NCBI GenBank assembly: GCA_964372245.1
Contig: CAYJQE010000002.1
Location: 206 to 64,205, forward strand
DNA length: 64,000 nucleotides
Origin: an uncultured Candidatus Saccharibacteria bacterium
GTDB lineage: Bacteria; Patescibacteriota; UBA1384; CAYJQE01
Direction of reading: 5' to 3'
The position numbers and the translations under genes are program-made. The notes under the pieces were generated by a model. That model was not told the DNA's origin, did not search any database, and worked only from the letters and a program-made list of their open reading frames with translations. Shown here in pieces: positions 15,093 through 38,009 of the stretch. The stretch's first letter is position 1, and each line of letters begins with the position of its first letter.

Positions 15093-18000
15093 CTATTTTT
15101 TGCCAGCCGGTTTCTTCTCGGAGTTAAACCAGAGAATTAGCAGAAAGAGGAGAAAGAGCAGACTGATCAGGTTGGCCAAAGCGAACCGAGTCTGATTCTT
15201 AAAATTAAGTTCGAGCTCGACTCTTTCCCCAATCGGCGGCATGAGAAAACCTTGGGCGAAGTGATTGACTGTCAGCCGCTCGGCCGCCACCGGTCTCTGA
15301 TCGATAAGGACCTGCCAGTTTGGGTTTTTCGACTCGAGAAAGGTCAATAAAAAGGGCGAATCGGTCTTCTCGATGGTCATCTTGGCCCGAGTTGGCGAGA
15401 GTCTCTGATAGTCGGAGATCGCGACCCTGTCCGGCTCGACCTTGAGAGATTTTTCGATAAAGATTGTTTCTAGGGGTTTGGCTTTTTCTCTCAAAACAAT
15501 ATTCGTCAGGCCGATCGTTGATCCCTCTTTGTCGCCGACAGCGAAAAAACCGAGCTCGGTTTTCTTTCCAGCTTTGAGACTAAGAGTTTGGTTGTAATGT
15601 CGCCAACCGACGTGTTTGCCAAGATAGCCGGCGATAACCGCTTGTCGTTCAGAGTCTCCGATCTGCTCGAGCTTGAGATCGAGCGTCTGGTCGTGGCGCC
15701 GCTGGCCGATTTGATTGCTAAGATAGCCGGCGATAACCGCTTGTCGTTCAGAGTCTCCGATCTGCTCGAGCTTGAAACCGATCGGCGAGTCTGAACCTTG
15801 AGCCATAAAATAGTCGAATCCAAGCTCATAGTCGCCCTCTTTCGTAACCGCCTGAAGCTTGGTCGTAAGCTCAACCTCTCGGTTTACCCGGTCGGTCTGA
15901 AGAGTCAGAAATTTTTGCCCGTCCTCTCTAAGGCTAAATTCAAAACATCGCTGGCAGGGATTTTCGATCTGCCAACCTTTGAGGCCCTGCTTGAAATCGG
16001 GATTGAGAATCAAGTTCTCGGATTGCCGACCCTCGCCCGAAGTCCGAATCTCAAACTCGGCTTTCTTGGGCGTTTGAGGTCTGGTCTTGGGCTCGGTTCT
16101 CGGTTGAGCGAGATAGATGATCGGCTTTGACTCGATCAATCTTGATGCCCGATTCTCAGCTTGCCGCCAGCGATCTTCCGGGACGACGATCAATCGGGAA
16201 ACGGCGTTAAAACCGGGACCGCTTTCGAGTTGACCGGAAAGCTTGCCGCTTGGAAGCTCGACCCTTCCAAGATCGAACCAGTGGTAACCCTTGCTCTCTG
16301 ACCAGCCGGTCACGATTGGTTCGAGCTTTTGATCGTCGAGCGAGAGCTCGAGTTGGCTGCCGGCTGGCGACCTAAAGGCTTGGAGAAGGACTCGATAATC
16401 GCCAGTCTCTTCGAGTCTGATCTCAAAATTCAAGCGATCTTCGGTCTCCGAGAGAATATAATCCGAGGTCGAGTTGGCGACCGGCTCTTTCCACCACCAC
16501 TGGTTGAGATAGGCGGCGACAAAATGCTCGTTAGCGTCGGCGTCGGTTGGCGGGATGAACCGCCCCAAGTCATATTTGTATCTTGCCGGCAAGAAGGCGG
16601 TCGTGAGGGTCTGTTCGTGATCCTCGGTCAGCCAAAGAGCCGAAACCTGCTCGATCGCCTCGTCGGAAAGTTCATTCTGTTCGGCGGCGAAAAGAAGCGG
16701 CGGCGGACTTTGATAAACCGACAACTCCGAGACCCGATCTATCAGATCGAAATCGCCTACCAAGAGGGCGGCTTTTTTGGCCATGACCGGACCGATCGCT
16801 CGCTCGTTTTGAAAAACCGAGACCCGGCCAAGTCGTTCTCTGAGCGAGAGATCTTTTTGGCGAGGGAGGATTTTTTCCAGACGGGCTTTCTTGAAGAGCT
16901 CGAAAAGCCAAGGATTATCTCGGTTGACAATGAATGAGGGATAACGAGAGGTAAAGTTTCTGTCAAAGATGATCTGGCCGATATTGGCCGTCGCCGCCGA
17001 GAAGCCGAAGTTATCGGTCTGGCCAAAGTTAAGGAGATTTATCAAATAGGCCGAGAGAGCCGGCCAGGCGGATGGGTTGGCGCCGGTCCAGAAAACCGGT
17101 TTGGCCGGTGTTTGGGTGAAGGGATTGACGCCGGGCGAGGTTTCCCGGCCAAAGCCGTTGTTTTCAAGGCTCATCGGCTGGTTGGTCGGCGCGTGCATAA
17201 TTCGAAAGTCGGCCGGGTTCTCTCGGAGCCGCTGGTAGACGATTTGAGAATCTTTTGGCGCCCGATAAGGCACGAGCTTGTCCCGGATGTAGGGCAGATA
17301 ATAGACCGAACTTGAGACGAGCGGGATGAAGAAAAGAATCGGCAAGATCAAAAATCGGCGATTGGTCTCAAGCAGCCAGTCGGCGGCAATGGCGAAGAGC
17401 AGACTAAAAGCCAGAGTGGTCAGGGCTAAGGCGTATGAACTGTTTCTCAAGACTGTCATCGGAGCGAAGTTGTCGTAGAGCCACTGGTTGAGCTGGCCGA
17501 GCGGCGGATTGACGCCTTTGGCCAAGAGGAGGCTGAAAATCGAGAGAGCGAGGAGAAAGAGGACCAGCGGCCTTCGTTTTTTGACCTTCAAAGAGACGAC
17601 AATCAGGCAGAGAAGCAGGATTCGGCTTGCGATCCAAACCGTTTTAAGCCAAGGAATCTGGCTAATCGAGTTTAAAAAGTGATTGGTGAATCTGCCGCCC
17701 TGAAGTGAAAGAGCCGACAGAAGCGAGGGATGCCCGAGGATGACATGGGATTTGATGGCGGTCGAGAGCTGATCGGACAGGTCAGCCGATCGCGACAAGC
17801 CGAGGAGCTCGAAAAGGAGGATGAGAAGCGTTGGTTGGAGGAAGATCGGCCCAAGTAGGAAGCCCAAGCCGGATAAGACCAGTCGGCCTCTTTGAGACCA
17901 ATCGTTTTTTTGGCCAAGATGCCAGATCAGACTGAAGAGAAGCAGCAAAGCGCCGATGATCAAGAAGTTTAACGAGCTGGCGATGAGGCCAAAAACGACG

Positions 18001-18545
18001 GCCGTTTTCAGAATCTCCCCCGCCGATCGCCTTTTTGGCAAGAACCAGAGATCGCCCAAAAATTCCGGCAGGAAAACGTAGGACGGGAAAAACTTCAGGT
18101 AACCTTCGACCAGACTGTCAAAGAAAAGCGGAGTGACAAGATAAAGAAAGCCGGCCAGAAAGCTGGCCAATCTCGAAAGACCGAGTCTTCTTGCCAGTCT
18201 TGTCATCGTCAGACCGGCGATTGGCAAGAGAAAGATTGGATATTTTGAGATTATCGCCCCGCCAAAGCGGCCAAGATAGGCCGAGAGAGCCATAAGCTGT
18301 TCAACATAGTTGCCGAATTGGCGGCTTTGTTCAAAGCCGAAATAATTTTTGTTCCAGAAAAAAAGGCTGTTGAGTCCGAGTTTTTCGTTTTGCCAAGGCA
18401 TGGGTGGGATCGGCCAGTCGCCGGAAAGTCCGATCGTCCCGGGAGAAAAAATCAGTTGCCAGAGACCAAAACCGACGATCAGGCTAAAAAAAAGACCGGT
18501 GGCAAAGAGCCATCGTCTCTTGATAAACTCCCCAAACCAGATCAT
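15093..18545 (-). CDS. Giant YfhO-like/GT-C-type polytopic membrane glycosyltransferase candidate (1150 aa), paralog of the genes at 29108, 31481 and 35253
   Basis: N-terminal multi-TM block with 'GLSGDWPIPP' loop motif, long extracytoplasmic domain, C-terminal 'SxxNPNWQVLIDQRPV...FAQGF' block plus single C-terminal TM anchor. Shares blocks ('NNGFGRETSPGVNPF', 'IFDRNFTSRYPSFIV') with the 1263-aa paralog. Confidence 0.6.
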   Translation of the reverse strand: MIWFGEFIKRRWLFATGLFFSLIVGFGLWQLIFSPGTIGLSGDWPIPPMPWQNEKLGLNSLFFWNKNYFGFEQSRQFGNYVEQLMALSAYLGRFGGAIISKYPIFLLPIAGLTMTRLARRLGLSRLASFLAGFLYLVTPLFFDSLVEGYLKFFPSYVFLPEFLGDLWFLPKRRSAGEILKTAVVFGLIASSLNFLIIGALLLLFSLIWHLGQKNDWSQRGRLVLSGLGFLLGPIFLQPTLLILLFELLGLSRSADLSDQLSTAIKSHVILGHPSLLSALSLQGGRFTNHFLNSISQIPWLKTVWIASRILLLCLIVVSLKVKKRRPLVLFLLALSIFSLLLAKGVNPPLGQLNQWLYDNFAPMTVLRNSSYALALTTLAFSLLFAIAADWLLETNRRFLILPILFFIPLVSSSVYYLPYIRDKLVPYRAPKDSQIVYQRLRENPADFRIMHAPTNQPMSLENNGFGRETSPGVNPFTQTPAKPVFWTGANPSAWPALSAYLINLLNFGQTDNFGFSAATANIGQIIFDRNFTSRYPSFIVNRDNPWLFELFKKARLEKILPRQKDLSLRERLGRVSVFQNERAIGPVMAKKAALLVGDFDLIDRVSELSVYQSPPPLLFAAEQNELSDEAIEQVSALWLTEDHEQTLTTAFLPARYKYDLGRFIPPTDADANEHFVAAYLNQWWWKEPVANSTSDYILSETEDRLNFEIRLEETGDYRVLLQAFRSPAGSQLELSLDDQKLEPIVTGWSESKGYHWFDLGRVELPSGKLSGQLESGPGFNAVSRLIVVPEDRWRQAENRASRLIESKPIIYLAQPRTEPKTRPQTPKKAEFEIRTSGEGRQSENLILNPDFKQGLKGWQIENPCQRCFEFSLREDGQKFLTLQTDRVNREVELTTKLQAVTKEGDYELGFDYFMAQGSDSPIGFKLEQIGDSERQAVIAGYLSNQIGQRRHDQTLDLKLEQIGDSERQAVIAGYLGKHVGWRHYNQTLSLKAGKKTELGFFAVGDKEGSTIGLTNIVLREKAKPLETIFIEKSLKVEPDRVAISDYQRLSPTRAKMTIEKTDSPFLLTFLESKNPNWQVLIDQRPVAAERLTVNHFAQGFLMPPIGERVELELNFKNQTRFALANLISLLFLLFLLILWFNSEKKPAGKK
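15621..15818. repeat. 99-bp in-frame tandem duplication (2 copies) inside the 1150-aa membrane protein gene
   Basis: First 56 nt of each unit identical (aagatagccggcgataaccgcttgtcgttcagagtctccgatctgctcgagcttga). Encodes 'LEQIGDSERQAVIAGYL...' twice. Confidence 0.85.
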
Positions 18546-19090
18546 AATTTCTTTTCAAGCTCGAGTCTTTCGATCAAAACGATCTCATTGATCTGGTAGA
18601 GCCGGTCGGGCTGAACTGTCTTTGAAACCGCGAATCTTAAAGCCTCGATTTTTTCTTTAACCCTTTTTGCCAAAACGATCTCGCGACTGATCTGGGTGTT
18701 CCTTTTAATGATCGCTAAAGTTTCAAAATCTGAAGCCCCCTCTTTTTTGATCATCAGGCTAAAGTCAACCGGCATTCTGGCTAAACTGCTCTCGATGACG
18801 ATCTTCGAGAGCGGTTTTGGGGTTTTTAGGCTGACCTCGAAGGTTGAGAGCTGATCATCGTCGATCGAGCCAAACCAAAAAGAGTCGAGATCGCCGTCAA
18901 TCGTCGAGGAGGGACTGCCGCCTCTCTCTGGACGATAACCGAGGGTTGCCCGGCCGGAAACCGTCAATTCGCAGGCGCAGGGAAAATCTATGGTCTCTTT
19001 TTCGATTTTGACGATTGTGACAACCCGACTGATGAGGAAGAGAAAAAACAGACCGTTTAAGAACCAAAAAAATGCCGTCAAGCGTTTCAT
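18542..19090 (-). CDS. Small signal-anchored discoidin (F5/8 type C)-like domain protein, translationally coupled (ATGA overlap) to the downstream giant membrane protein
   Basis: Start taken at internal ATG 19090 ('MKRLTAFFWFLNGLFF' signal/anchor). 'DGDLDSFWFGS' matches the discoidin-like block of the 24464 protein. Stop TGA overlaps ATG of the 15093-18545 gene. Confidence 0.5.
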   Translation of the reverse strand: MKRLTAFFWFLNGLFFLFLISRVVTIVKIEKETIDFPCACELTVSGRATLGYRPERGGSPSSTIDGDLDSFWFGSIDDDQLSTFEVSLKTPKPLSKIVIESSLARMPVDFSLMIKKEGASDFETLAIIKRNTQISREIVLAKRVKEKIEALRFAVSKTVQPDRLYQINEIVLIERLELEKKL

Positions 19091-19185
19091 TATGATCCAG
19101 TATAGCTTGAAAACGGTCGAGTTCTTTCTGAACCGGAGAAGATCTTGGCTTTGAGCCTTATCGCTGCTAGCCTGAAAGACGACCA

Positions 19186-20907
19186 ATGGTTAAATTTCGA
19201 TTAGCCGGAGATCAAGAACTGGCCAGCCCGATCGAGGCCGGTCTTTACGATCGGCCCTATTTTGAGACCCTTAATCGGGGTTTTCTCGACTATCAGGTCG
19301 GCGCGATTCATCCCAAACTTAAGAAGGCGGTCTCGATGATCAAGGGCGAGAATCGGCGAGTCCTTGATATTGGTTCGGGTCGAGGCGAGTTCGCGGCCAG
19401 CGCCGCCTCGGACGGCCACCTTGTGATCGGTCTTGATTATTCCCGCTCGGCCATCGAACTGGCCGAGGATTATGTCTCTCGTCTGCCGGCCGATGTCAAA
19501 GCTCGAATCGGCTTTGTGCAAAAGGACGCCAAGAGCCTTGGCTTTGAGTCGGAATCATTCGATGTCGTCTCGCTGCTTGACGTCGTCGAGCATCTCCATC
19601 CCTGGGAGCTCGACCGGGCGATTTCCGAGGTCTATCGAGTCTTAAAGCCGGGTGGCCAGCTGATCGTTCACACCAGTCCGAACCGACGGTTAATGGCTCC
19701 GGTCCGGTCTCTTGGTCGGCTTTTTGGCTTTAGGACAAAAAGCGAGCGGTATCACGTTAATGAGCAGACGCCAAAGTCAATCGGGGCTTACTTAAAGGGC
19801 TTCAAGTTCACAGTCGAACTGGAGCGGGACCGAGATTTCTGGGCTTGGATGTTTCGGCCCGGCGACCGGCTGTTATCGGTCGCGAAGTTAGCCGATTTTA
19901 TTGTTGATTTTCCTCTTTGGTCTTGGCTCTTTGATCGCTGGCCGCTGAATCGCGTGTTTGCGACCGATATCTGGATTGACGCTCGAAAAAAAATCGGCGG
20001 CGGTCGTCTGGTTTTAACGGAGGAGGGGGAACGGAGGCTTTCGAAGATTCTCTCGAAGGTCGGCGATCTCAATTTTCGACGACGGATCTTGACGATGCTT
20101 GAGTATCTCGATATTAAGGATGGCGAGACGATTCTCGATGCCGGCGCGGGCGAGGGCTTTTACAGCCTGATTTTTTCCGAGCTCTATCCCAATTCAACGA
20201 TCGAGGCCTTTGATTATGATCCCGAGCTGGTCTCAATGGCGAAGAGCTGGCTCAAAGAGAGACCGAAAGTGATGATCCGGCTAGCCGACATCGTCCGCCT
20301 GCCTTATCTCGATCAAACTTTCGATAAGATCGTTTGCACCGAAGTTTTGGAGCATCTGCCCGACGACCGGATGGCGATGAAGGAGCTTTGGCGGGTTTTG
20401 AAGCCGGGCGGGACTTTGGCCATCACCGTTCCGAATCGTAACTATCCGCTCCTCTGGGACCCCCTGAACAAAATCAGGGAGCTTCTTCGTCTCGGTCATT
20501 TTTCCGGCCGACACGGTCTGCTTGGCGGCATCTGGGCGCTCAACCACTTTCGCCTTTACTCCCCGCTTGAACTTAAAGATCTGGTCGAGAAAAGCGGCTT
20601 TCTTTGCCGAGATCTTCGGGGCTTGACCCATTACGGTCTGCCCTTTAATCATCTGATCCTTTATCTTGGCAAGCAGTTTTACACCAAACTGCCGGTTCCG
20701 GAATCGATTCGGAGGGAGATGGAGAAATTTGAGTGGGACAGGGGAGAGAAGGGTCAAAAGGCTGAAAACCGGGGATTGGGTCTCCTCAAGGCCGGGCTCT
20801 GGCTGCTCAGGCTCACCGATAGTCTGAACGATCATTTTCATAATGAACACAATCTTTCGGTCTCGAGCATGGCGGTCTCGGCCAAGGCCGTGAAACCTAA
20901 AAGCTAA
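19186..20907 (+). CDS. Tandem two-domain class I SAM-dependent methyltransferase
   Basis: Two separate motif-I/post-I sets: 'VLDIGSGRGEFA...VLKPGGQLIV' and 'ILDAGAGEGFYS...VLKPGGTLAI'. 573 aa. Confidence 0.75.
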   Translation: MVKFRLAGDQELASPIEAGLYDRPYFETLNRGFLDYQVGAIHPKLKKAVSMIKGENRRVLDIGSGRGEFAASAASDGHLVIGLDYSRSAIELAEDYVSRLPADVKARIGFVQKDAKSLGFESESFDVVSLLDVVEHLHPWELDRAISEVYRVLKPGGQLIVHTSPNRRLMAPVRSLGRLFGFRTKSERYHVNEQTPKSIGAYLKGFKFTVELERDRDFWAWMFRPGDRLLSVAKLADFIVDFPLWSWLFDRWPLNRVFATDIWIDARKKIGGGRLVLTEEGERRLSKILSKVGDLNFRRRILTMLEYLDIKDGETILDAGAGEGFYSLIFSELYPNSTIEAFDYDPELVSMAKSWLKERPKVMIRLADIVRLPYLDQTFDKIVCTEVLEHLPDDRMAMKELWRVLKPGGTLAITVPNRNYPLLWDPLNKIRELLRLGHFSGRHGLLGGIWALNHFRLYSPLELKDLVEKSGFLCRDLRGLTHYGLPFNHLILYLGKQFYTKLPVPESIRREMEKFEWDRGEKGQKAENRGLGLLKAGLWLLRLTDSLNDHFHNEHNLSVSSMAVSAKAVKPKS

Positions 20908-20915
20908 TTTTTCCC

Positions 20916-21794
20916 TTGCTCGGCCAACTTAGCGGGCTTTTCTGGTCGTTTCGGCCAAACCAGTGGGTCAAAAATCTGGTTGTCTTAATTCCGCTGTTCT
21001 TTGCCGGCCAGCTCTTGAATCCCGACCTTTTTCGGTTGGCTTTGGCCGGAGCGCTGCTCTTCATTCTTGCCTCATCGGCCGCTTATTTGATCAACGATCT
21101 CTTCGATCTCCCGCTTGATCGGAAACTGCCGGTCGGTCTCAAGCGACCGATCGCTCGAGGTCGGGTCTCGACAAGGCTTGTGGCTTTCGCGATCGTCCTT
21201 CTTGTTTTCGGAGCGATTTCGATCTCGTTCAAACTTGAGCCGAAGTTTGGCTTGGTCATTCTTGGTTATCTGATCTTAAACATCCTCTACTCGGCCGGTC
21301 TTAAACAGCTGGCGCCGCTCGACGTCTTTATTGTCGCCTTGGGCTTTGTTCTCCGGGTGATCGGCGGCAAGGTTTTGACCGATCTGCCGAGCAGTCCCTG
21401 GCTCTTTTTGGGAACATTTTTTATCGCCCTCCTGCTTGTCCTTTCGAAGCGCTTTGTCGAAGCGAGGCTTTTTCTCGGGCGGGCGGTTGAGAAAAGGCGG
21501 GCCATTGGTCTCTATCAACCGGAACTCTTAAAATCCTGGTTAAATATTGCCGTCGCCGCCGTCCTCGTCGTCTACGCTCTCTACTCGATTGATTCCGAGG
21601 TTGTCGCCGCCTCGGCTCGGAGCGATCTCTTTGTCTACTCGATCGTCTTCGTGACCTTCGGTCTTTTTCGCTATCTTCAGCTGCTTTATCAGGGGGAAGA
21701 GGCCGGCTTTCTCGGTCCCTTAAAACGCGACCCGGCCTCCTGGCTGAACGGACTCTTCTGGCTTGGTTATACGGGCTTTATTCTCTATTTCTAG
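20916..21794 (+). CDS. UbiA-family prenyltransferase, decaprenyl-phosphate phosphoribosyltransferase (DPPR synthase)-like
   Basis: 'RPNQWVKNLVV' N-terminus and 'INDLFDLPLDRK' NDxxDxxxD motif characteristic of the Rv3806c-type subfamily. ~8 TM. TTG start. Confidence 0.65.
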   Translation: MLGQLSGLFWSFRPNQWVKNLVVLIPLFFAGQLLNPDLFRLALAGALLFILASSAAYLINDLFDLPLDRKLPVGLKRPIARGRVSTRLVAFAIVLLVFGAISISFKLEPKFGLVILGYLILNILYSAGLKQLAPLDVFIVALGFVLRVIGGKVLTDLPSSPWLFLGTFFIALLLVLSKRFVEARLFLGRAVEKRRAIGLYQPELLKSWLNIAVAAVLVVYALYSIDSEVVAASARSDLFVYSIVFVTFGLFRYLQLLYQGEEAGFLGPLKRDPASWLNGLFWLGYTGFILYF

Positions 21795-21964
21795 TTGAAA
21801 TCGAAACTTCGGCCGAAAAACTAAACAAAACGATGGCTGAAAAACCGACGGCCAGCCCGGAAAGAGACGATCTCTTTCGATGATCGGTCTTCGTTCAAAC
21901 GGTCGGTTTTTTTCAAATCGCGCGGCTTTAGGTTTTTGGCCGCGAATTCGCTAATCTCGATTGA

Positions 21965-22294
21965 GTGGCCTATTTTTTGCTCTTTCTCGCCTCTTTGGCC
22001 AATGCTTTGGCCAATCTTTTTATTCGGGCGGCCTCTTTCGAGCCGTTCGGTCTTAACCGTCTTTTTAAGCCCGCCAGCTGGTTTGGCATTCTGCTCTTTC
22101 TGGTCGCTCTCGCGCTTTACTCCGAGAGCCTTCACCGGCTCGGAATTGTCGTCTCCTACCCAATCTTCGGCCTTTTGAGTCTGTTTTTGATTATCTTTTT
22201 CGGTTACCGGCTTTTTCAAGAACCGATCTCGGCCAGCCAGATTCTTGGTTTTCTTTTGGCCGGGCTGGCGATTGTTCTTATCAGCCGGGGTTAG
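21965..22294 (+). CDS. Small 4-TM SMR/ArnE-ArnF-like (DMT superfamily) membrane protein, candidate lipid-linked sugar flippase subunit
   Basis: 109 aa, four hydrophobic helices. GTG start. Adjacent to the UbiA-like gene. Confidence 0.5.
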   Translation: MAYFLLFLASLANALANLFIRAASFEPFGLNRLFKPASWFGILLFLVALALYSESLHRLGIVVSYPIFGLLSLFLIIFFGYRLFQEPISASQILGFLLAGLAIVLISRG

Positions 22295-23364: not shown

Positions 23365-23438
23365 TTTTTGATCTTTCGCCCTTTAGGCCTTCAATCTAAT
23401 CGTTCGGTCAGTGGGGAAGTCAATGAGACTTTTAAACG

Positions 23439-24437: not shown

Positions 24438-24463
24438 TAAGCCTTTAGTGTAGACTAGAAGAA

Positions 24464-26736: not shown

Positions 26737-26765
26737 TTGAAACAGGCTCGATCGGCTGATATTAT
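26737..26765 (+). promoter_or_regulatory. Sigma70-like promoter TTGAAA-17-TATTAT upstream of the GT4 gene
   Basis: TTGAAA 26737-26742, TATTAT 26760-26765. Lies in a 340-bp intergenic gap. Confidence 0.5.
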
Positions 26766-26801
26766 CGAACGGAAGAGGGCCGGTTCATAAAGCTTAATTC
26801 G

Positions 26802-29086: not shown

Positions 29087-29107
29087 TCTGATTTGCTTTA
29101 AGGAGAG

Positions 29108-31426: not shown

Positions 31427-31480
31427 CCGGCTTCGGTCCCTCTTCACCTTAAGAGCCCGAAGGGTTAGTCTGGGTGGGTA

Positions 31481-34400
31481 ATGGGGGCAAGAAGGATCGA
31501 AAGCTTGGCTCGCTTGGGCGGGTTTTTTCAGCTCTTAGTTCGAGAGTGGCAACGGCTTTCAGGTTCTGGCAGGGCGATTCGGCTCTTTCTTGTCCTGACC
31601 TTTCTTTCAAGCTGGCGACTCCTTTTTTCCGGCGGAACCTTGGGCCTTCGTGACGACTGGGCGATACCGCCTCTGCCCGAGCAAAATATCATCCAAGTCG
31701 TCCGAAATATCTTCCAACCTTGGTTGCCGAACTACCTCGGCTATAGCCAGCCTCGTCAAGTTGGCAACTATGTTGATATTATCCTCGGCCTGTTCTCCCA
31801 ACTTTTTCATTTCGGCGGAGCAATCTATTCACGTTTTCCGATAATTTTCATTTTTCTCTCCGGCTATCTGATGTGGCGGCTTTTGCGGTCGATCAAACGA
31901 TCGGAAACGGCCAGCCTGATCGGCGGCAGCTTCTATATGCTCACCCCCTTCGTCTTCAACACCTTGATCTCCGGTTATGCCAAGTTTTCGATCTCCTACG
32001 CCTTTTTGCCGCTCCTTTTTGAGCTTTACCTTGAGCTGGTTTCGGCCAAAAAACTCGCCCTTCGTCGTCTTTTGCTCCTCGGTCTAGCGATGGGTCTGGT
32101 TGGGACGCAACTCAATTTTCTCGTGCTCGGTTTTGGTCTGATCTCGGGCTATTGGCTCTTTGAGCTGATTCTTCGGCTAATCTCAAGAAAGAACCCGGTT
32201 AATCTTTTTCTTCGCCACATCCTCCTTCTTTTGGTCGCGCTCTCGGGCGGCCTGATTCTCCAATCCCATCTTTTGGTTGAGCTTTTAGGCTCGCTCTTCG
32301 GTTTCTCGAACTCTCAATTGACAGCCGATTTTAGGGAGACGTTTAACTCCTCCTGGTTGGCTCTTAAGGGCTCAAATTTGATCGAGGCCATCTCTCTTTT
32401 CGGCGGCGGCTACAGCTACTTCGAGCGAACGGCCAGAGCTTTGCCCCTCTGGGACGTAGCTCGTCTCTTTTTGCCGATCTTGGCCGCGCTTGGTTTTCTC
32501 TTCCGACCAAAAGATCGCCTCAATCTCTTCGCCCTGCTTTGCGGCCTTGGCTCGATCTTTCTTTTGAAGGGCGAGAATCCGCCCTTGGCCGGATTAAACC
32601 GCTGGCTCTTCGAGCAGGTCTCGGCCATGGTCGTGATTCGAAATCTTCTCTACGTCACATTTATTGGCGCTTTGGCCTATGCTATTTTGATCAGTTCATT
32701 CGTTGACGGCGCCTTGATTCGCTGGCCGGCAAGACGGAACTTGATTGCCGCCATCTCTCTGGTGGCGATAATTCTTGCCGAGTGGCCGATGCTGACCGGC
32801 AATTTCGGCGGCCAGATTAGAGCCTATCGAGTTGAGGAAGACACGACCTCGAGCTTTAGAGAGCTCCTTTCCGAGTCCGGAGACTGGCGGCTTTTAGAGC
32901 TGCCTTTTCATCAGCCGATGACCTACTTTGATGAAAATGGCAACACGAGCTTTCCGGGCGACAACCCATTCGTCGCCTTCTCGCCAAAACCGGCCCTCTG
33001 GATGGGAGTTTTCGGCGCCGGATTCCCGCCTTTCAACGCCTTTATTTCGAATCTGATGAATCATGGCTTGACGTCCAAGTTTGGCCGAGCCCTCTCGCTT
33101 GCCAATGTCAAAAAGGTCCTTTTTGACCGTCATTTTCAGTCAAACTATCCGGGTTTTGTCGTTTCCGAACAACATCCTTGGCTTGGCTTCGCGATGAACA
33201 ATCGGTTCGTTTCGAATTTTTTGGGGAAACAGTCCGATTTGAAGCTCTCTTCAGAAAAGGGCCAGGTCTCAATTTATGACAACCAGAGCTTTCTCGAATC
33301 TCGCCGTCTCAAGCTTGAAAAAACAATGCCTCTGGTCGTTGGCGACTACCTGACAGCTCACAAAATCGAGGGAGTTTCGACCAAGGGTCGGTCGCCAGTC
33401 TTTGCCTCTCAAGTCAGCTTGGACGAAAATCAATCGGCTCTCTCGGCGATTGGCGAACTCTGGCTTGACTCAAATGAGAGCGAAAGCCTTTTTGAGGCCT
33501 TTTTGCCGAAGAGAACGAAAATTGATCCAGCCAACTTTGTCGGGTCAAACGACTCCGACGCCCATAATGGCTTTCGAGCGACTTATCGAAATGAGTGGTG
33601 GTGGCTTGAACCGAAGATAGCCGGTCTGGAAAATAGCATTCTGACCTTTGCCAAAGATCGTTTTTCTCTCCCGATCGAGGTTGAGACGGCGGGGAAATAT
33701 CATATTTTGGTCAAGCCGTTTTTGAGCGAACGGGGCTCGAGACTTCGGTTCTCGCTGGCCGACAACTCGCCGGTTGAGATCTCGACCCGGTCGGCGTTCG
33801 AGACCAACTATCGCTACTTCGATCTTGGCCAATTCGATCTCTTGGCCGGCCAAAATTCTTTGGTTTTCGAAAGCGATGGCTTGGGCCTAAACGCAATCGC
33901 GAGAGTGATCGTAGTTTCTGAAACCGACCTTCTTGTGGCCAGGCGGCGAGCGGCCGATCTGTTGAATGAGCGAAATCTGACTCTGCTGGTTGACAATTTT
34001 TCCGAAACCGGCTCGACTCGCCAGATCAGCCTTTCCGCCTCGGGCGATTACGCGGTCGAGATTATGGGCAGAAAGGGCTTCCGTTATAAACTTTTAATTG
34101 ACGGCCAGCCAGTTTTTGGCGGTCAGCTTAAAGCCGATGGTCAAAATCCAGCCGGCAAGGTTTTTCTCTCGGCCGGTCGTCATAAGCTTGAGCTTGTGCC
34201 GGAAGTGATCGAGGTCGAGGTCCTTGACGACCCGTCTTTTGAGGTCGGTCTCTGGGGCGGGGCCAAGGATTCGAACATCGGATTGCCGACGCCGCCCGAT
34301 TTCTCGGCCAATCGGTCGTCAGACCGAACGGAGGGCGAATTTTCGGTCGAGCTCGAGTCGCGATCGCACATTGCCAACATTCATCAGACGTTGTCCGATT

Positions 34401-35272
34401 TTGACGAGAAAGCGGTCTATCGAATTAGCTTCGATTACAAAAATGTTGCCGGCAATCCGCCGGCCTTTGCCCTCAAAGAAGAGGGATCGGAGCTCATCAA
34501 ACCCTATGATTTTTTGCCAAAATCGAGCAGCTGGCAACGTTATGAATTTATCTGGCGACCCTCGCCCGGCGCGACCGGTGGCACCCTTCACTTTTTTGCC
34601 CATCCGACCGAATCTGGCGGTCAGACGATTAATCGCTATGACCGGGTTTCGGTTATCAAACTTCGTTCAGCCGAGAGCCTGATGCTTCATCGCCGAACCA
34701 GCCAGCTTTCAGACCCCCCGGCCTCGACCGATCTTACATTCGAGACCCACTCGCCGACCAAATATCGGGGGCAGATCGCCGAGCCGGGTTTCTTGGTCTT
34801 TAACGAGGCCTTTGATCGAAGATGGCGGTTAAAGATCAACGGTCGGCCGATTGATCCCGAAAACCAGTTTAGGGTTTTCGGTTTCGCCCAGGCTTGGCCG
34901 GTCACCTCGGCCGGTGAGTTTGAGCTTGAATATCGTCCGGCCTCGCTCTTTCGAATCGTGAGTTATCTAGCCACGATTTTGACCTTTCTCGGCTTCGGCC
35001 TTTTGCCGGACTGGCGGGGCTGGTTCAGGCGAGTTGTCGTCCCGGTTACGAAGCGACAGAGGAAAAGGCTTTTCAACTGGCCAGGATTGTTGAGACGGAT
35101 GATCAATGATCGGCCGGCGGTTGTCTTTGCCTTTTTAGCCGGCCTCTTTGTCCTGCTTGAAGGCAGCCTTTTAAAATCGAAAGAGAGTTTTCTGATGGCG
35201 ACCTTGAGCCTGACCGCCGCGGCGATAACTCTTCTGATCAAAATCTTTAAGGATGGCGATGAAGAATCTTGA
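31481..35272 (+). CDS. Giant YfhO-like/GT-C-type membrane glycosyltransferase candidate (1263 aa)
   Basis: 'GGTLGLRDDWAIPP' first-loop motif (DD), multi-TM N-domain, and blocks shared with the 1150-aa paralog. C-terminal 'FNEAFDRRWRLKINGRPIDPENQFRVFGFAQAWP...EFELEYRPASLFRI' plus TM anchor resembles YfhO C-termini. Confidence 0.6.
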   Translation: MGARRIESLARLGGFFQLLVREWQRLSGSGRAIRLFLVLTFLSSWRLLFSGGTLGLRDDWAIPPLPEQNIIQVVRNIFQPWLPNYLGYSQPRQVGNYVDIILGLFSQLFHFGGAIYSRFPIIFIFLSGYLMWRLLRSIKRSETASLIGGSFYMLTPFVFNTLISGYAKFSISYAFLPLLFELYLELVSAKKLALRRLLLLGLAMGLVGTQLNFLVLGFGLISGYWLFELILRLISRKNPVNLFLRHILLLLVALSGGLILQSHLLVELLGSLFGFSNSQLTADFRETFNSSWLALKGSNLIEAISLFGGGYSYFERTARALPLWDVARLFLPILAALGFLFRPKDRLNLFALLCGLGSIFLLKGENPPLAGLNRWLFEQVSAMVVIRNLLYVTFIGALAYAILISSFVDGALIRWPARRNLIAAISLVAIILAEWPMLTGNFGGQIRAYRVEEDTTSSFRELLSESGDWRLLELPFHQPMTYFDENGNTSFPGDNPFVAFSPKPALWMGVFGAGFPPFNAFISNLMNHGLTSKFGRALSLANVKKVLFDRHFQSNYPGFVVSEQHPWLGFAMNNRFVSNFLGKQSDLKLSSEKGQVSIYDNQSFLESRRLKLEKTMPLVVGDYLTAHKIEGVSTKGRSPVFASQVSLDENQSALSAIGELWLDSNESESLFEAFLPKRTKIDPANFVGSNDSDAHNGFRATYRNEWWWLEPKIAGLENSILTFAKDRFSLPIEVETAGKYHILVKPFLSERGSRLRFSLADNSPVEISTRSAFETNYRYFDLGQFDLLAGQNSLVFESDGLGLNAIARVIVVSETDLLVARRRAADLLNERNLTLLVDNFSETGSTRQISLSASGDYAVEIMGRKGFRYKLLIDGQPVFGGQLKADGQNPAGKVFLSAGRHKLELVPEVIEVEVLDDPSFEVGLWGGAKDSNIGLPTPPDFSANRSSDRTEGEFSVELESRSHIANIHQTLSDFDEKAVYRISFDYKNVAGNPPAFALKEEGSELIKPYDFLPKSSSWQRYEFIWRPSPGATGGTLHFFAHPTESGGQTINRYDRVSVIKLRSAESLMLHRRTSQLSDPPASTDLTFETHSPTKYRGQIAEPGFLVFNEAFDRRWRLKINGRPIDPENQFRVFGFAQAWPVTSAGEFELEYRPASLFRIVSYLATILTFLGFGLLPDWRGWFRRVVVPVTKRQRKRLFNWPGLLRRMINDRPAVVFAFLAGLFVLLEGSLLKSKESFLMATLSLTAAAITLLIKIFKDGDEES

Positions 35273-38009
35273 TTATAGTGGCTGGCCCGGTCTTTTGAGA
35301 ACGAAGCTCAAAAGTTGGTTTAAGAGCGATCGGTTAAAAATTGGCCTTTTCTTTCTCTTTTTGGCGATTCTTTTCAGTTGGCCGCTCCTTGGTCGGCCGG
35401 GCCTGATCGGCCTTCGTCACGACTGGTCAATTCCGGTCTTTGATCTCGATTACTTTCTCTCGCTTGGCGGTTCGGCTTGGACCAAGGAGAACCTTGGCCA
35501 CTCAAGGATCTTTGGTTCGATCTATCTCTTTGATTTGGCCTTTGGCTTGCTTGGCCTGATCGGTATTAACGGCGCCCTTCTCTCAAAAATTCTTCTTGTC
35601 GCAAGTCTGACGGTTGCCGGTTTCGGCGGCTTTTATCTCGCCAGTCAGCTCGGTCTCTCGCTCCTGCCAGCCGCGATTTCCGGTTGGCTCTATCTCGCCT
35701 CGCCGATTCTTTTTGACAAGTTGACCGCCGGCCAGCACGGCTACTTCTTGGCCTACGCTCTGGCCCCTTATTTTCTCGGTCTGGTTGATCGGTTTTTGGT
35801 CGGTCGGAAACCGAGACTTAGCCAGCTGCTTTGGCCGGCGTTCCTGTTCGCTTTGATCGCCGGCCAGCTCCAATTTTTAGCGATGGCCTCAATCGCTTCC
35901 TATCTTGTCTCGGCCCGATTCGGTTTTCGACGATGGCTTTGCCTCTATCTGAAGATTGTCGGCCTCTCGGCGATTTTTATGCTCCCTTGGCTGACGTTGC
36001 TCTTCCTGAACCGGGGGGCGGTCAGCGATTTGGCCGGTGGGGCGACCAGTCTTTCTTGGCTGGCCGGTCTCTCCTCATCGCTCTTTGACAGTCTTCAGCT
36101 CACGACTACGGCTAATCCCTACTTTGTTAAGGTCGCCTCGGAGTTCAATTTCCTCTGGCCGGCCAGTTTTCTCCTGGTCGGGAGCCTGTTCGGACTGGTC
36201 TTAGGGCCGAAAAAGCGCGTTCTGCCGATCGGTTTACTGCTTCTTATCGGCATCTTTTTGGCTAAAGGCACCTACCCGCCGCTTGGCGGAATCTACTCTC
36301 GGGCGATTCAAACTCTGCCTTACCTCGCGAGTTTTAGAGAGGTGAGCCACTGGCTCTTCCTGCCGACCCTGGCCGCCGTTCTCCTCTTCGCTTTCTTTGT
36401 CTCGCGGATCATTGAAGCTCGAAACCGGAGCCTGATCGTCTCTTCAAGCTTGATTATTCTCGGTCTTCTCTGGTATAGCTGGCCCTATCTTTCAGGCGGT
36501 CTCTCGCGAGAACTCCAGGTCTTCAATCCCCTGCCGGAATACAAACGTTATTACTTTGAACAGGTCAGGGGAGAGGATCGGACCCGGGTTTTTTATCTCC
36601 CGAGCTCCAAAAAGACCCATTTTGCCGGTTTGGCCCATGCTGGCGCCGATCCGTTTATTCTCGGTTCGAAAAAACCGGCTTTGGCCGAGGAGGGCAATAT
36701 TATCTCGACCGCCGATCCGAGCACGGCCTTTCGAAATTTTCTTCAAAACGAGCTTCAGCTCGCGCCGCTTGAAGAGGCGAAAAAGAGTTTTCAACCGCTC
36801 CTTTCCTTGGCCGATATTTCGGCGGTCAATTTGAAAACTCGAGCGACCGATGATTTTCCGGCCTATTCTTTTCTCCGACACCATCCCGAGAAGGCGAGAG
36901 TCTGGGACATGGCCTATCGCCTAGAGCGACTTAACGAACTTTTTAAGCCAAGTCAAAGACGGCAACTTGGCTCGCTTCTCGTTTACGAAATCGACAATCG
37001 CTCGAAAAAATTTCGTTTTGCCACTCGACCGGTCTTTACGACCGGCGGTCGAGAGATTTTGAGAGATAAACAATATGACGCGGTTTTCTTTGCTTATCAG
37101 GTTAATCGATCCGAGCTTTCAGCGATCAAGCCGACAGTCGAGAGCTCGACGGCCGAGGCTTGGGCGCTGGCTCAAGCGCCGAAAGACCGGGCGTTTGAAC
37201 TTTCGGAGCTGGCCAAAAGGACTGTTTCGGCCGACGAGGGCTTTATTCCGGGTCATTACTATTGGTGGTATGATCGGGCCTTCAGCGAAATTGTTGAACC
37301 GTTCGTCGTCAGTTTTTCAGACGACTCGCTTCGCTTCGATCTCTCTCCCGGCCAAGGGCCGGAGAATCTTTTAATTAAATACCTGGCCTGGCCGGAAGGC
37401 GGCGAGATCAAGATCAAAATCGGTCAAGAGACGAAAACTCTTTCGACCAAAGCCCAAGAAAAAGCTTGGCGAGTTCTCGATCTCGGACCGGTTGAGGGCT
37501 TGAAAGATCAATCGCTAAAGGCTGAAATTTCAGTCTCGGGCGGGAAAAACGCGATCGCCCGATTGGCTCTTGTCGACCAAGCGGAGATCGAGAAAGGCCG
37601 CGAGGCGGGAGCCGGCTCGCTGGCCAAGAATCTTGATCCGGCCGGATTGGGAACGCTCGCCGACCGGTCGCAAGAGCCGGAAGTTGAGGTTCTTCGGTCA
37701 AGTTTGACAAAATACACAATCAGGACCAAAACAGTAAAACCCTTCTACCTGATTTTTTCCGAGTCCTACCACCCGGGCTGGCGGCTTATCGGCTCGGCTG
37801 GCCAAGAGCTTAAGCCGATTATGGTTGATTCCTTTGCCCAAGCCTACCCGATCTCCGATCTTTCCGAGCAGACCTGGCGGCTTGAGTTTCTGCCCCAGAG
37901 GGCCTACCGGACCAGCCTCTTAATCGCGCTCGCGGCTCTGACTGTAACGGTCGGTCTTCAGATCGGTTCAAGATTCCGCTTGAAGAAATCGAAAACCGAA
38001 ATTAGCTGA
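35253..38009 (+). CDS. Giant YfhO-like/GT-C-type membrane glycosyltransferase candidate (918 aa)
   Basis: 'GLIGLRHDWSIPV' loop motif, and C-terminal 'FSESYHPGWRLIGSAGQELKPIMVDSFAQAYP...WRLEFLPQRAYRTSLLIALAAL' plus TM anchor. Overlaps upstream paralog by 20 nt. Confidence 0.6.
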   Translation: MAMKNLDYSGWPGLLRTKLKSWFKSDRLKIGLFFLFLAILFSWPLLGRPGLIGLRHDWSIPVFDLDYFLSLGGSAWTKENLGHSRIFGSIYLFDLAFGLLGLIGINGALLSKILLVASLTVAGFGGFYLASQLGLSLLPAAISGWLYLASPILFDKLTAGQHGYFLAYALAPYFLGLVDRFLVGRKPRLSQLLWPAFLFALIAGQLQFLAMASIASYLVSARFGFRRWLCLYLKIVGLSAIFMLPWLTLLFLNRGAVSDLAGGATSLSWLAGLSSSLFDSLQLTTTANPYFVKVASEFNFLWPASFLLVGSLFGLVLGPKKRVLPIGLLLLIGIFLAKGTYPPLGGIYSRAIQTLPYLASFREVSHWLFLPTLAAVLLFAFFVSRIIEARNRSLIVSSSLIILGLLWYSWPYLSGGLSRELQVFNPLPEYKRYYFEQVRGEDRTRVFYLPSSKKTHFAGLAHAGADPFILGSKKPALAEEGNIISTADPSTAFRNFLQNELQLAPLEEAKKSFQPLLSLADISAVNLKTRATDDFPAYSFLRHHPEKARVWDMAYRLERLNELFKPSQRRQLGSLLVYEIDNRSKKFRFATRPVFTTGGREILRDKQYDAVFFAYQVNRSELSAIKPTVESSTAEAWALAQAPKDRAFELSELAKRTVSADEGFIPGHYYWWYDRAFSEIVEPFVVSFSDDSLRFDLSPGQGPENLLIKYLAWPEGGEIKIKIGQETKTLSTKAQEKAWRVLDLGPVEGLKDQSLKAEISVSGGKNAIARLALVDQAEIEKGREAGAGSLAKNLDPAGLGTLADRSQEPEVEVLRSSLTKYTIRTKTVKPFYLIFSESYHPGWRLIGSAGQELKPIMVDSFAQAYPISDLSEQTWRLEFLPQRAYRTSLLIALAALTVTVGLQIGSRFRLKKSKTEIS

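What the first reader, a model, noticed from the sequence alone, without database searches (positions are those of the whole stretch)
15093..38009. Expanded family of five paralogous giant YfhO-like / GT-C-type membrane proteins
Five genes encode 665-1263-aa proteins with the same architecture: 15093-18545 (-), 24464-26461, 29108-31426, 31481-35272 and 35253-38009. Each has an N-terminal 8-13-TM block carrying a conserved first-loop motif (L[RS]xDW[ASP]IP, with a DD dyad in one), a large extracytoplasmic domain, and a conserved C-terminal block ending in a single TM anchor. The C-terminal block (S/N-x-x-P-x-W-...-G-x-P/R-...-F-A-Q-A/G-...-E-x-x-L-E-F/Y) resembles the C-terminal signature of YfhO-family GT-C enzymes. 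Those enzymes transfer sugars from polyprenyl-phosphate donors onto teichoic-acid-type polymers. Five divergent copies in 23 kb, three of them in tandem, point to a diversified extracytoplasmic glycosylation toolkit. I know of no description of this family as a locus-level system in such lineages.
Basis: partly seen in the sequence, partly recalled or inferred. Interest (0 to 1): 0.72.

Follow-up and report, generated by a model that had tools for sequence, protein, structure and literature searches.

The report
Four AftD-like membrane glycosyltransferase paralogs
A cell-surface polysaccharide gene cluster from an uncultivated bacterium carries four (not five) related giant membrane enzymes. 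They most resemble the mycobacterial cell-wall arabinosyltransferase AftD and lie near a gene that could make their lipid-linked sugar donor, so this is a plausible but untested new setting for a known enzyme type.

Summary
All five ORFs exist at the stated coordinates, but they are not five paralogs. A (15093-18545 -), D (31481-35272) and E (35253-38009) are clear paralogs. They share an N-terminal ~11-TM domain with the first-loop motif, a large external domain, the C-terminal block and a TM anchor. C (29108-31426) is a divergent member: it keeps the loop Asp but lacks the C-terminal block. B (24464-26461) is unrelated and has a different architecture.

None of the five hits Pfam YfhO. The family links to AftD instead:
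- The family profile matches M. abscessus AftD in both the N-terminal domain and the C-terminal block (E 7e-21).
- The family consensus passes the Pfam GT-C_AftD threshold.

The family is large (13,147 clusters at 50% identity) and mostly unannotated. It often occurs in multiple copies in similar polysaccharide loci. In this window, a UbiA enzyme most like decaprenyl-phosphate phosphoribosyltransferase and two SDR epimerases lie between the paralogs.

Best reading: these are extracytoplasmic GT-C transferases that use polyprenyl-phosphate sugars, possibly pentofuranoses. This is a new variant of a known kind and of moderate interest.

The parts
15093..18545 (-). Paralog A, 1150 aa. AftD-like GT-C with an N-terminal ~11-TM domain (loop motif GLSGDWPIPP), an external domain with CBM-like modules, the C-terminal block and one TM anchor.
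   Evidence: blastp to D E 6e-130. Family HMM 855 bits. Motifs. Contains a 99-nt internal tandem duplication at 15574-15771.
18542..19090 (-). Small membrane-anchored discoidin-like protein. It lies upstream of A, overlaps it by 4 nt and is a possible accessory glycan-binding subunit. The ORF runs to 19186, but the likely start is the ATG at 19090.
   Evidence: Weak F5_F8_type_C hit, E 1.8e-4. Its domain is paralogous to the discoidin-like domain of B, E 3e-6. Sequence and start position read. The accessory role is inference.
19186..20907 (+). Double SAM-methyltransferase, 8 nt upstream of the UbiA gene.
   Evidence: Pfam Methyltransf_11/25/23, two domains. Methyltransferases recur next to family members in L007, L011, L012 and L013.
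20916..21794 (+). UbiA-family enzyme most like decaprenyl-phosphate phosphoribosyltransferase. Candidate synthase of a polyprenyl-phosphate pentose donor.
   Evidence: NCBIfam NF008977 E 3.7e-50, 171 bits (below the 234-bit cutoff). The top hits are all DPPR-synthase or related UbiA models. Pfam UbiA. Relatives are co-located with family GT-Cs in L028/29/31/33 and L039.
22291..23364 (-). Extended SDR (NAD-dependent epimerase/dehydratase family). Candidate epimerase of the lipid-linked or nucleotide sugar.
   Evidence: Pfam Epimerase E 1.8e-40. Nearest NCBIfam is HpnA, far below cutoff. The role is inference by analogy with PMC11127046.
23439..24437 (-). Second extended SDR epimerase/dehydratase-family protein.
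   Evidence: Pfam Epimerase E 2.7e-33; NCBIfam.
24464..26461 (+). Protein B, 665 aa. NOT a paralog. N-terminal TM anchor, external discoidin-like domain (about res 40-180), then about 12 TMs. Function unresolved.
   Evidence: hhalign to the family 1%. Negative HMM scores. Only weak F5_F8_type_C / NADase_discoid hits. No homologues found. Single-sequence model unusable, pLDDT 46. PMT_2 profile 13%.
26802..29086 (+). GT4 glycosyltransferase (26802-27998) and UDP-GlcNAc 2-epimerase (27995-29086). They head the co-directional run that continues into C, D and E.
   Evidence: Pfam Glycos_transf_1 E 1e-30; Epimerase_2 E 6e-104. Gene gaps of -4, 21, 54 and -20 nt.
29108..31426 (+). Paralog C, 772 aa. 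Divergent AftD-like GT-C domain (Asp kept in IVDAGIPYYP) with a different external domain and a C-terminal TM. Lacks the C-terminal block.
   Evidence: A4 HMM E 3.7e-32 over res 20-579. hhalign 96.8%. C-terminal block -2.9 bits.
31481..35272 (+). Paralog D, 1263 aa. AftD-like GT-C (GLRDDWAIPP), external domain with a weak CBM_4_9 hit, the C-terminal block, then about 3 extra TMs.
35253..38009 (+). Paralog E, 918 aa (or 916 aa from 35259). AftD-like GT-C and the protein that was modelled.
1519..2304 (+). Small GT2 with weak full-length similarity to polyprenyl-phosphate sugar synthases (PpgS, Dpm1-like, AglJ, ArnC). A second candidate donor synthase.
   Evidence: NCBIfam PpgS E 1.9e-12 over 5-225 of 226 positions, far below cutoff. 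A homologue sits beside a family GT-C and a UbiA gene in L039.
4744..6291 (+). B12-binding radical SAM enzyme. Recurs beside family GT-Cs in other loci.
   Evidence: Pfam. HpnJ-like E 1.5e-41, below cutoff. Homologues in L007, L011 and L039.
43959..45434 (+). Wzx/MOP-family flippase. A second one lies at 6-1259, and a Wzy_C polymerase/ligase-like protein at 51700-53151. Together they mark the surrounding polysaccharide assembly locus.
   Evidence: Pfam Polysacc_synt and Wzy_C.

Best explanation
A, D, E and the divergent C are members of a large, largely unannotated clade of AftD-like GT-C glycosyltransferases.

Proposed mechanism:
- Each protein sits in the cytoplasmic membrane with about 11 TM helices.
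- The conserved Asp of the first external loop (GxxGLxxDWxIP) faces outward and acts as the catalytic or metal-binding residue (inferred).
- The enzyme takes a sugar from a polyprenyl-phosphate-linked donor and transfers it to a growing or finished cell-surface glycan.
- That glycan is held by the CBM-like beta-sandwich modules of the large external domain.
- The glycan backbone is made by the surrounding Wzx/Wzy-type locus (GT4s, GT2s, flippases, Wzy_C).
- The four paralogs would add different residues or linkages as branching or extension steps.

The most likely donor in this window is a polyprenyl-phosphate pentofuranose. It would be made from PRPP by the DPPR-synthase-like UbiA enzyme (20916-21794) and possibly epimerised by the two adjacent SDRs. 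This parallels mycobacterial arabinan synthesis and the three-component pentofuranose systems of Kelly et al. 2024. A PpgS/Dpm1-like GT2 (1519-2304) could supply a second donor, a polyprenyl-phosphate hexose.

Shown: homology and fold similarity to AftD/GT-C, paralogy, motif conservation and gene neighbourhood. Inferred: catalytic activity, donor identity, acceptor and the division of labour among the copies.

B is not part of the family. Its role is unknown.
For: Paralogy.

Link to AftD:
- The family profile A5 matches AftD (6W98/6WBX) at E 7e-21. Two stretches align: the GT-C domain (profile 58-534 to AftD 50-544) and the C-terminal block plus TM (880-1008 to 1151-1281).
- The family consensus hits Pfam GT-C_AftD at 47.6 bits against a gathering score of 26, covering 65-624 of 661 profile positions. 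YfhO is not listed.
- PF11847 is the commonest Pfam hit among homologues, 5 of 18 and 7 of 45.
- By Foldseek the top three hits are all AftD (E 1.6e-11 to 2.8e-9), and the next GT-C hits (OST complexes) are near 1e-3.
- CBM6/35/36 matches cover the external beta-sandwiches.

Conservation in 100 members: loop Asp 89% plus 9% Glu, Y135 97%, P160 99%, R367 93%, P453 98%, W1077 95%.

Donor pathway:
- The UbiA gene's best matches are DPPR-synthase models (E 3.7e-50).
- Searching from the UbiA side, 5 of about 26 long metagenome loci carry a family GT-C within about 5 kb. These represent at least two independent lineages.
- L039 also shares the GT2 and the B12-rSAM.

Context and precedent:
- The window is a polysaccharide locus.
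- Related loci have 2-4 copies and similar neighbours.
- Kelly et al. 2024 (PMC11127046) describe UbiA-type synthase, flippase, GT-C with CBM, and an SDR epimerase.
- AftD architecture is described in bioRxiv 10.1101/2019.12.22.885152.
Against: - No individual window protein reaches any Pfam GT-C model. The AftD link rests on profiles and one medium-confidence model built from an 18-sequence alignment.
- The UbiA score is below NCBIfam's equivalog cutoff (171 vs 234 bits).
- No DprE1-like FAD oxidase, no PAP2/HAD phosphatase for the 5-phosphate and no GtrA/SMR flippase was seen among the main window ORFs scanned.
- None of the loci fetched around the GT-C homologues (L003-L013) has a UbiA gene within the flanking sequence held, up to 10 kb each side. 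A pentofuranose donor is therefore not a general property of the family.
- A and D have Asn where 81% of the family have Asp in the GxDP motif, which aligns with AftD's candidate catalytic D474/E475.
- C has lost the loop Trp and the C-terminal block. Some copies may therefore be inactive or have altered chemistry.
- No experimental data exist for any member outside Actinobacteria.
Confidence: 0.65

Rival explanations
1. One reading: these are YfhO-family enzymes of a CsbB/GtcA/YfhO-type three-component system that glycosylates teichoic-acid-type polymers.
For: The family HMM matches YfhO-annotated proteins (P0019, P0020, P0022, P0023) in both the N-terminal domain (down to iE 2e-30) and the C-terminal block (down to iE 3e-14). 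One of 45 close representatives hits PF09586. A small GT2 resembling polyprenyl-phosphate sugar synthases is present. A review reports that HHpred places YfhO-type enzymes next to AftD (PMC8035078).
Against: There is no PF09586 hit for any window protein or for the family consensus at E<=1. PF11847 is the dominant and only above-threshold family. The C-terminal block also occurs in AftD. No teichoic-acid genes and no GtrA/GtcA-like flippase were found among the scanned ORFs.
Confidence: 0.1
2. They are protein glycosyltransferases (OST/PMT/TfpW-like) that modify secreted or surface proteins, for example the neighbouring subtilase and Ig-domain proteins, rather than a polysaccharide.
For: The next-best structural matches after AftD are STT3B, PglB, AglB and PMTs. 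A conserved WWW[Y][D/N] motif in the external domain (about 70% of members) loosely recalls the WWDYG motif of oligosaccharyltransferases; that comparison is from memory and is only a lead. Secreted subtilase and Ig-like proteins lie immediately downstream on the other strand.
Against: The AftD match is clearly stronger than the OST matches by Foldseek (1e-11 vs 1e-3) and by sequence profile, where no OST is found. The motif lies about 270 residues after the last TM, not directly after it as in OSTs. CBM-type modules and the Wzx/Wzy context point to glycan acceptors.
Confidence: 0.1
3. Only one or two copies are active transferases. The others (C, and perhaps A and D) are degenerate paralogs that act as non-catalytic glycan-binding or scaffolding subunits.
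For: C lacks the loop Trp and the whole C-terminal block. A and D carry Asn at the GxDP Asp that aligns with AftD D474/E475. A carries a recent 33-aa internal duplication inside a CBM-like region.
Against: All four keep the first-loop Asp and long intact ORFs. About 10% of family members also have Asn at GxDP, so it may be a tolerated variant.
Confidence: 0.12

Closest known systems
AftD (arabinofuranosyltransferase D; Pfam PF11847 GT-C_AftD / DUF3367; PDB 6W98, 6WBX, 6WBY)
   Same: Order of parts: an N-terminal ~11-TM GT-C domain, a long external region with CBM-type beta-sandwiches, a C-terminal ES.xPGW...VN.[FW]...L.F block and a TM. It is the best sequence-profile, Pfam and fold match. A polyprenyl-phosphate pentose donor pathway is hinted at by the DPPR-synthase-like UbiA.
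   Different: Identity in the structure-based alignments is only 11-15%. Individual proteins fall below the Pfam threshold. They are shorter (772-1263 vs about 1400 aa). A, C and E have one C-terminal TM and D about four, versus five in AftD. The loop motif DW.IP is clade-specific. The source is not a mycolata organism, whereas AftD homologues were reported only across Actinobacteria. There are four copies in one locus. ACP binding is unknown.
YfhO family (PF09586) of the CsbB/GtcA/YfhO teichoic-acid glycosylation systems
   Same: GT-C enzymes with a large external domain. The same C-terminal block and TM anchor are detectable by the family HMM. Both use a three-component logic with a lipid-linked donor.
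   Different: No PF09586 hit. More distant than AftD-type sequences in every comparison. No teichoic-acid context.
Three-component pentofuranose systems (PPPRS + MATE flippase + GT136 GT-C, with or without an SDR epimerase; Kelly et al. 2024, PMC11127046)
   Same: A UbiA-type phosphoribose synthase homologue, SDR epimerase-family genes, MOP-family flippases and GT-C enzymes with CBM domains, all in one polysaccharide locus.
   Different: The GT-C here is AftD-like, not GT136 (ArnT-like). There are four GT-Cs rather than one. The UbiA protein has no fused phosphatase domain and no separate phosphatase was found. Function is untested.
Mycobacterial arabinan cluster (ubiA Rv3806c, dprE1/E2, aftA, embCAB, aftB) - from established knowledge
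   Same: Several paralogous GT-C genes, some in tandem, lie beside a DPPR synthase and epimerisation genes.
   Different: The GT-Cs there are Emb, AftA and AftB, and aftD lies elsewhere. Epimerisation there uses the FAD enzyme DprE1 plus DprE2. Here only two extended SDRs are present and there are no galactan genes.

Membership tests
GT-C fold glycosyltransferases | Multi-TM (7-13) core with the fold shared by STT3, PglB, ArnT, PMT and Aft enzymes | tested here: met
GT-C fold glycosyltransferases | Conserved acidic residue in the first extracytoplasmic loop | tested here: met
   Asp in GL..DW.IP of A, D and E, and in IVDAGIP of C. It is 89% Asp plus 9% Glu in 100 members. The outside location is inferred from the positive-inside N-terminus and the model. 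A catalytic role was not tested.
AftD / PF11847 GT-C_AftD | Match to the Pfam model above the gathering score | tested here: inconclusive
   Individual A, C, D and E give no hit, even at E<=10 on the N-terminal domains. The family consensus scores 47.6 bits against a gathering score of 26. 5 of 18 and 7 of 45 homologues hit.
AftD / PF11847 GT-C_AftD | Architecture: N-terminal GT-C TM domain, long periplasmic region with CBMs, C-terminal TM region | tested here: met
   The C-terminal TM region is reduced to one helix in A, C and E.
AftD / PF11847 GT-C_AftD | Candidate catalytic residues E251, D474 and E475 of M. abscessus AftD | tested here: inconclusive
   The family GxDP motif aligns with the D474/E475 site: Asp in E, Asn in A and D. 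The E251 region aligns to a variable loop that has an acidic residue in each paralog.
AftD / PF11847 GT-C_AftD | Uses decaprenyl-phosphate arabinofuranose to build arabinan; binds ACP | not testable with these tools
   Only a DPPR-synthase-like UbiA neighbour is seen. No DprE1/E2 genes were found.
YfhO / PF09586 | Match to the Pfam YfhO model | tested here: not met
   No hit for the proteins, their N-terminal domains or the family consensus. 1 of 45 representatives hits, at E 2e-4.
YfhO / PF09586 | C-terminal signature block followed by a TM anchor | tested here: met
   The family HMM C-terminal block matches YfhO-annotated P0019, P0020, P0022 and P0023. The same block matches AftD, so it does not discriminate.
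YfhO / PF09586 | Partner GT2 (CsbB-type) and GtcA/GtrA flippase; teichoic-acid acceptor | tested here: inconclusive
   A weakly PpgS/Dpm1-like GT2 is present. No GtrA-like protein or teichoic-acid gene was found among the scanned ORFs.
Three-component pentofuranose glycosylation system (PMC11127046) | Polyprenyl phosphoribose synthase of the UbiA/DPPRS type | tested here: inconclusive
   Best NCBIfam matches are DPPR-synthase models at E 3.7e-50, but 171 bits is below the 234-bit cutoff. An NDxxDxxxD motif is visible in the sequence.
Three-component pentofuranose glycosylation system (PMC11127046) | Phosphoribose phosphatase (fused PRP domain or separate enzyme) | tested here: not met
   The UbiA protein is 292 aa with no extra domain. 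No HAD or PAP2 protein was found among the scanned window ORFs.
Three-component pentofuranose glycosylation system (PMC11127046) | GT136-type GT-C | tested here: not met

The most novel reading that the evidence does not exclude
The locus may be an arabinan-like assembly line outside the Actinobacteria. A DPPR-synthase-like UbiA enzyme and two SDR epimerases would make one or more polyprenyl-phosphate pentofuranoses. Four AftD-like GT-Cs would then polymerise and branch them outside the membrane into a pentofuranose-rich, probably methylated cell-envelope polymer. If so, the 13,000-cluster clade would be a widespread, unrecognised class of extracytoplasmic glycan polymerases in uncultivated bacteria.
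Probability: 0.2. Interest if true: 0.7.

Novelty: new variant of a known kind. Interest (0 to 1): 0.4.

Why it matters
AftD is an essential cell-wall enzyme in mycobacteria, and its published homologue survey found it only within Actinobacteria. Three results here extend that picture:
- A very large clade of the same build exists elsewhere and mostly escapes Pfam annotation. It comprises 13,147 clusters at 50% identity, and only about 15% of the close representatives scanned hit PF11847.
- The clade typically occurs in several copies per polysaccharide locus.
- In this window and at least two other lineages it lies beside a DPPR-synthase-like gene.

If the inferred chemistry holds, extracytoplasmic pentofuranose glycosylation reaches beyond the GT136 systems and mycobacteria, and these enzymes would explain part of the unknown glycan diversity of uncultivated bacteria. 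For annotation, the practical result is a corrected call: A, C, D and E are AftD-like GT-C glycosyltransferases, and B has unknown function.

Tried and rejected
- Direct Pfam and NCBIfam scans of the five proteins and of their TM domains gave no GT-C family hit.
- phmmer of D and of B against PDB sequences found nothing useful.
- B:
  - No homologue in the 5.8-billion-protein word search or in the metagenome contigs.
  - hhalign to the family profile gave 1% and to a PMT_2 profile 13%. BLAST to the window's Wzy_C protein gave nothing.
  - The single-sequence AlphaFold model was unusable, pLDDT 46. B was therefore dropped as a fifth paralog and left unassigned.
- The AFDB Foldseek library was unavailable.
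- The search for related loci with alignment A1 failed for lack of conserved stretches. The three-sequence alignment A3 worked but returned only 4 genome loci.
- The 100-sequence Pfam scan exceeded the size limit.
- Taxonomy:
  - All window proteins looked up are singletons at 90% identity and carry no names.
  - The one named cluster mate, a 48-aa 'Bathyarchaeota' protein, has no similarity to A and is a clustering artefact.
  - The VanW/PG_binding_4/G5 protein suggests a bacterium. The lineage remains unknown.
- TRF found no tandem repeats in the region. The repeat finder did find the 99-nt duplication in A.
- No UbiA gene lies within the flanking sequence held (up to 10 kb each side) for the GT-C homologue loci L003-L013. 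The UbiA link is therefore not universal.
Full report
**1. Observation**

The five ORFs are present exactly as listed. I call them A (15093-18545, minus strand, 1150 aa), B (24464-26461, 665 aa), C (29108-31426, 772 aa), D (31481-35272, 1263 aa) and E (35253-38009, 918 aa). Public gene calls start E at 35259.

Pairwise BLAST shows that A, D and E are true paralogs:
- A-D: 30% identity over about 1180 residues, E 6e-130.
- A-E: E 6e-33.
- D-E: E 2e-27.
- C is barely detectable (C-D E 7.6e-4).
- B matches nothing.

Profile methods settle C and B:
- Family HMMs built from homologues score C at E 1e-25 to 4e-32 over residues 20-580. hhalign gives 96.8%.
- B scores negative bits and 1% probability.

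Motif checks:
- C has IVDAGIP, with the Asp in register.
- B has nothing comparable.
- The C-terminal block is strong in A, D and E (66-88 bits) and absent from C and B.

B also has a different layout: a TM anchor, a discoidin-like external domain and then about 12 TMs.

**2. What the family is**

None of the proteins, nor their isolated TM domains, hits any Pfam GT-C model, including YfhO PF09586.

Homologues recovered by word-indexed searches carry PF11847 (GT-C_AftD) and PF10131. Only the most distant ones carry PF09586.

An exhaustive HMMER search with a six-sequence profile found 13,147 cluster representatives (50% identity clusters) at E<=1e-3. Of these, 8,033 score <=1e-10 and 2,557 score <=1e-30. 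Most of the top 150 match the profile end to end. Of 45 such representatives, 7 hit PF11847, 2 DUF6541, 1 YfhO and 1 DUF2079. The rest hit no GT-C family.

Three tests point to AftD as the nearest characterised relative:
- *Sequence profile.* A 45-sequence family profile finds M. abscessus AftD (6W98/6WBX) at E 7e-21 among PDB sequences. Two separate stretches align: the GT-C domain, and the C-terminal block with its TM helix (AftD 1151-1281: ES.NPGW...VNGWQQGW...LTF).
- *Pfam.* The HMM consensus of the family passes the PF11847 gathering threshold (47.6 vs 26 bits, 65-624 of 661 positions). PMT_2, GtrII, DUF2079 and DUF6044 are weak, and YfhO does not appear.

The family HMM also matches YfhO-annotated proteins in both the N-terminal domain and the C-terminal block. 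However, the block is common to AftD, YfhO and this clade, so it is not diagnostic. A published review notes that HHpred places YfhO-type enzymes next to AftD (PMC8035078).

**3. Conserved positions**

In 100 family members:

| Position | Conservation |
|---|---|
| First-loop Asp | 89% (plus 9% Glu) |
| Following Trp | 89% |
| Y135 | 97% |
| P139 | 96% |
| G148 | 98% |
| Y156 | 95% |
| P160 | 99% |
| R367 | 93% |
| P453 | 98% |
| C-terminal W1077 | 95% |

A GxDP motif just after the TM domain is 81% Asp. It aligns with the D474/E475 pair that Tan et al. propose as catalytic candidates in AftD. E has Asp at this position, while A and D have Asn. A WWW[Y][D/N] motif in the external domain is about 70% conserved.

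**4. Context**

The whole window is one or more polysaccharide loci. It contains:
- Nine GT4 genes and four GT2 genes.
- Two Wzx-type flippases and a Wzy_C protein.
- GalE and UDP-GlcNAc 2-epimerase.
- Two GHMP kinases with a nucleotidyltransferase.
- A B12-radical-SAM enzyme.
- GH113-like and other glycosidase-like proteins.

Between A and B lie four genes of particular interest:
- A double methyltransferase.
- A UbiA-family gene whose best NCBIfam matches are decaprenyl-phosphate phosphoribosyltransferase models (E 3.7e-50, 171 bits, below the 234-bit cutoff).
- Two divergently transcribed extended SDRs.

A is preceded by a small membrane-anchored discoidin-like protein and overlaps it by 4 nt. 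That protein's domain is paralogous to B's. GT4, the 2-epimerase, C, D and E form a tight co-directional run.

**5. Related loci**

Eight independent loci around homologues show the same kind of neighbourhood: GT2, GT4, methyltransferases, B12-rSAM, SDR epimerases, Wzx and PMT_2-type GT-Cs.

Many carry 2-4 family genes:
- L003: 2
- L004: 2
- L006 (a Candidatus Woesebacteria MAG): 2
- L007: 3-4
- L013: 2

None of them has a UbiA gene in the flanking sequence held, up to 10 kb each side.

Searching from the other side, 60 metagenome loci encode relatives of the window's UbiA protein. Of about 26 that are longer than 9 kb, five carry a family GT-C (848-1097 aa, E 1e-31 to 1e-52) within about 5 kb:
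- L028, L029, L031 and L033 are one syntenic lineage.
- L039 is independent. It also shares homologues of the window's small GT2 and B12-rSAM, and its UbiA ORF is 487 aa, which suggests a fusion.

**6. Mechanism**

The best-supported reading is that A, D, E and C are extracytoplasmic GT-C transferases. They would take sugars from polyprenyl-phosphate donors and add them to a surface glycan made by the locus, with CBM-like modules holding the acceptor.

The DPPR-synthase-like UbiA gene and adjacent SDRs make a polyprenyl-phosphate pentofuranose (Ribf, or an epimer such as Araf or Xylf) the most attractive donor. This parallels mycobacterial arabinan synthesis and the three-component systems of Kelly et al. 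2024. In that work an SDR alone converts the Ribf donor to Xylf, and the GT-C carries a CBM.

Gaps in this reading:
- No phosphatase, no DprE1-type oxidase and no small flippase was found.
- The UbiA score is sub-threshold.
- The association with UbiA is not general for the family.

Confidence:
- About 0.75 that these are lipid-donor GT-C transferases acting on a glycan.
- About 0.35 that the donor is a pentofuranose.
- 0.65 overall for the statement as framed.

**7. Rivals**

- YfhO-type teichoic-acid glycosylation (0.1) fails the Pfam test and lacks context.
- Protein glycosylation (0.1) is suggested only by secondary fold matches and a Trp-rich motif.
- Partial loss of catalysis in some copies (0.12) is compatible with the main reading.

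**8. Novelty**

The fold, the architecture and the logic are all known. What is new:
- The placement of this large, mostly unannotated clade next to AftD.
- Its presence outside Actinobacteria, whereas the AftD structure paper found homologues only within that class.
- Its habit of occurring in multiple copies.
- Its co-location with a DPPRS-like gene here.

'DUF3367' appears in a single paper of the searchable library. I rate this a new variant of a known kind, with interest 0.4.

**9. Limits**

- B remains unassigned.
- The organism is unknown. All proteins looked up are singletons at 90% identity, and only a VanW/PG_binding_4/G5 protein suggests a bacterium.
- The structural evidence is for E only and comes from a shallow alignment.
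- Nothing here is experimental.

Noticed in passing
window 15574-15771 (inside gene A, minus strand): A 99-nt tandem duplication (two copies, 83% identical, with the 3' 57 nt of each printed copy identical). It encodes a repeated 33-aa unit (LEQIGDSERQAVIAGYL...) inside a CBM-like part of A's external domain. It could be a recent in-frame duplication or an assembly artefact.
   Followed up: partly
window 18542-19186 (-) and 24464-26461 (+): Two membrane-anchored discoidin-like (F5/8 type C-like) domains are paralogous to each other (E 3e-6). One is a small protein translationally coupled to A. The other is fused to the 12-TM body of B. AftD's PDB entry 6W98 is itself named 'F5/8 type C domain-containing protein'. 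These may be accessory glycan-binding modules for the GT-Cs.
   Followed up: partly
window 11152-11847 (+): A SIS-domain (sugar isomerase-like) reading frame is interrupted by a single in-frame stop at 11350-11352. It lies among GHMP-kinase and nucleotidyltransferase genes that look like a heptose- or hexose-nucleotide pathway. It may be a pseudogene or a sequencing error.
   Followed up: no
window 4744-6291 (+); also L007 2128-3645, L011 1862-3325, L039 5302-6756: A B12-binding radical SAM enzyme (nearest NCBIfam HpnJ, far below cutoff) recurs next to family GT-Cs in several unrelated loci, usually with SAM methyltransferases. This hints at unusual (C-methylated or rearranged) sugars in these glycans.
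   Followed up: partly
A res 683-687, D res 705-709, E res 672-676 (window about 16485-16499, 33593-33607, 37266-37280): A Trp-rich motif, WWW[Y/L/K][D/N/E], in the external domain is about 70% conserved across 100 family members. Its role is unknown. It is not covered by the sequence-profile alignment to AftD.
   Followed up: partly
window 38145-42268 (-): A subtilase with an N_BRCA1_IG Ig-like domain (794 aa), and a 594-aa protein with two such domains, lie directly downstream of E on the opposite strand. They are followed by a GH113-like hydrolase. They may be secreted proteins that process or carry the glycan.
   Followed up: no
L039 7687-9147: The UbiA homologue in this metagenome locus is 487 aa, against 292 aa in the window. 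This is consistent with a fused extra domain such as the phosphatase domain described for PPPRS enzymes.
   Followed up: no
protein cluster look-up for A: The database's 90%-identity cluster for A has a 48-aa 'Candidatus Bathyarchaeota' protein as its representative. That protein shows no similarity to A. This is a clustering artefact and not a taxonomic clue.
   Followed up: yes
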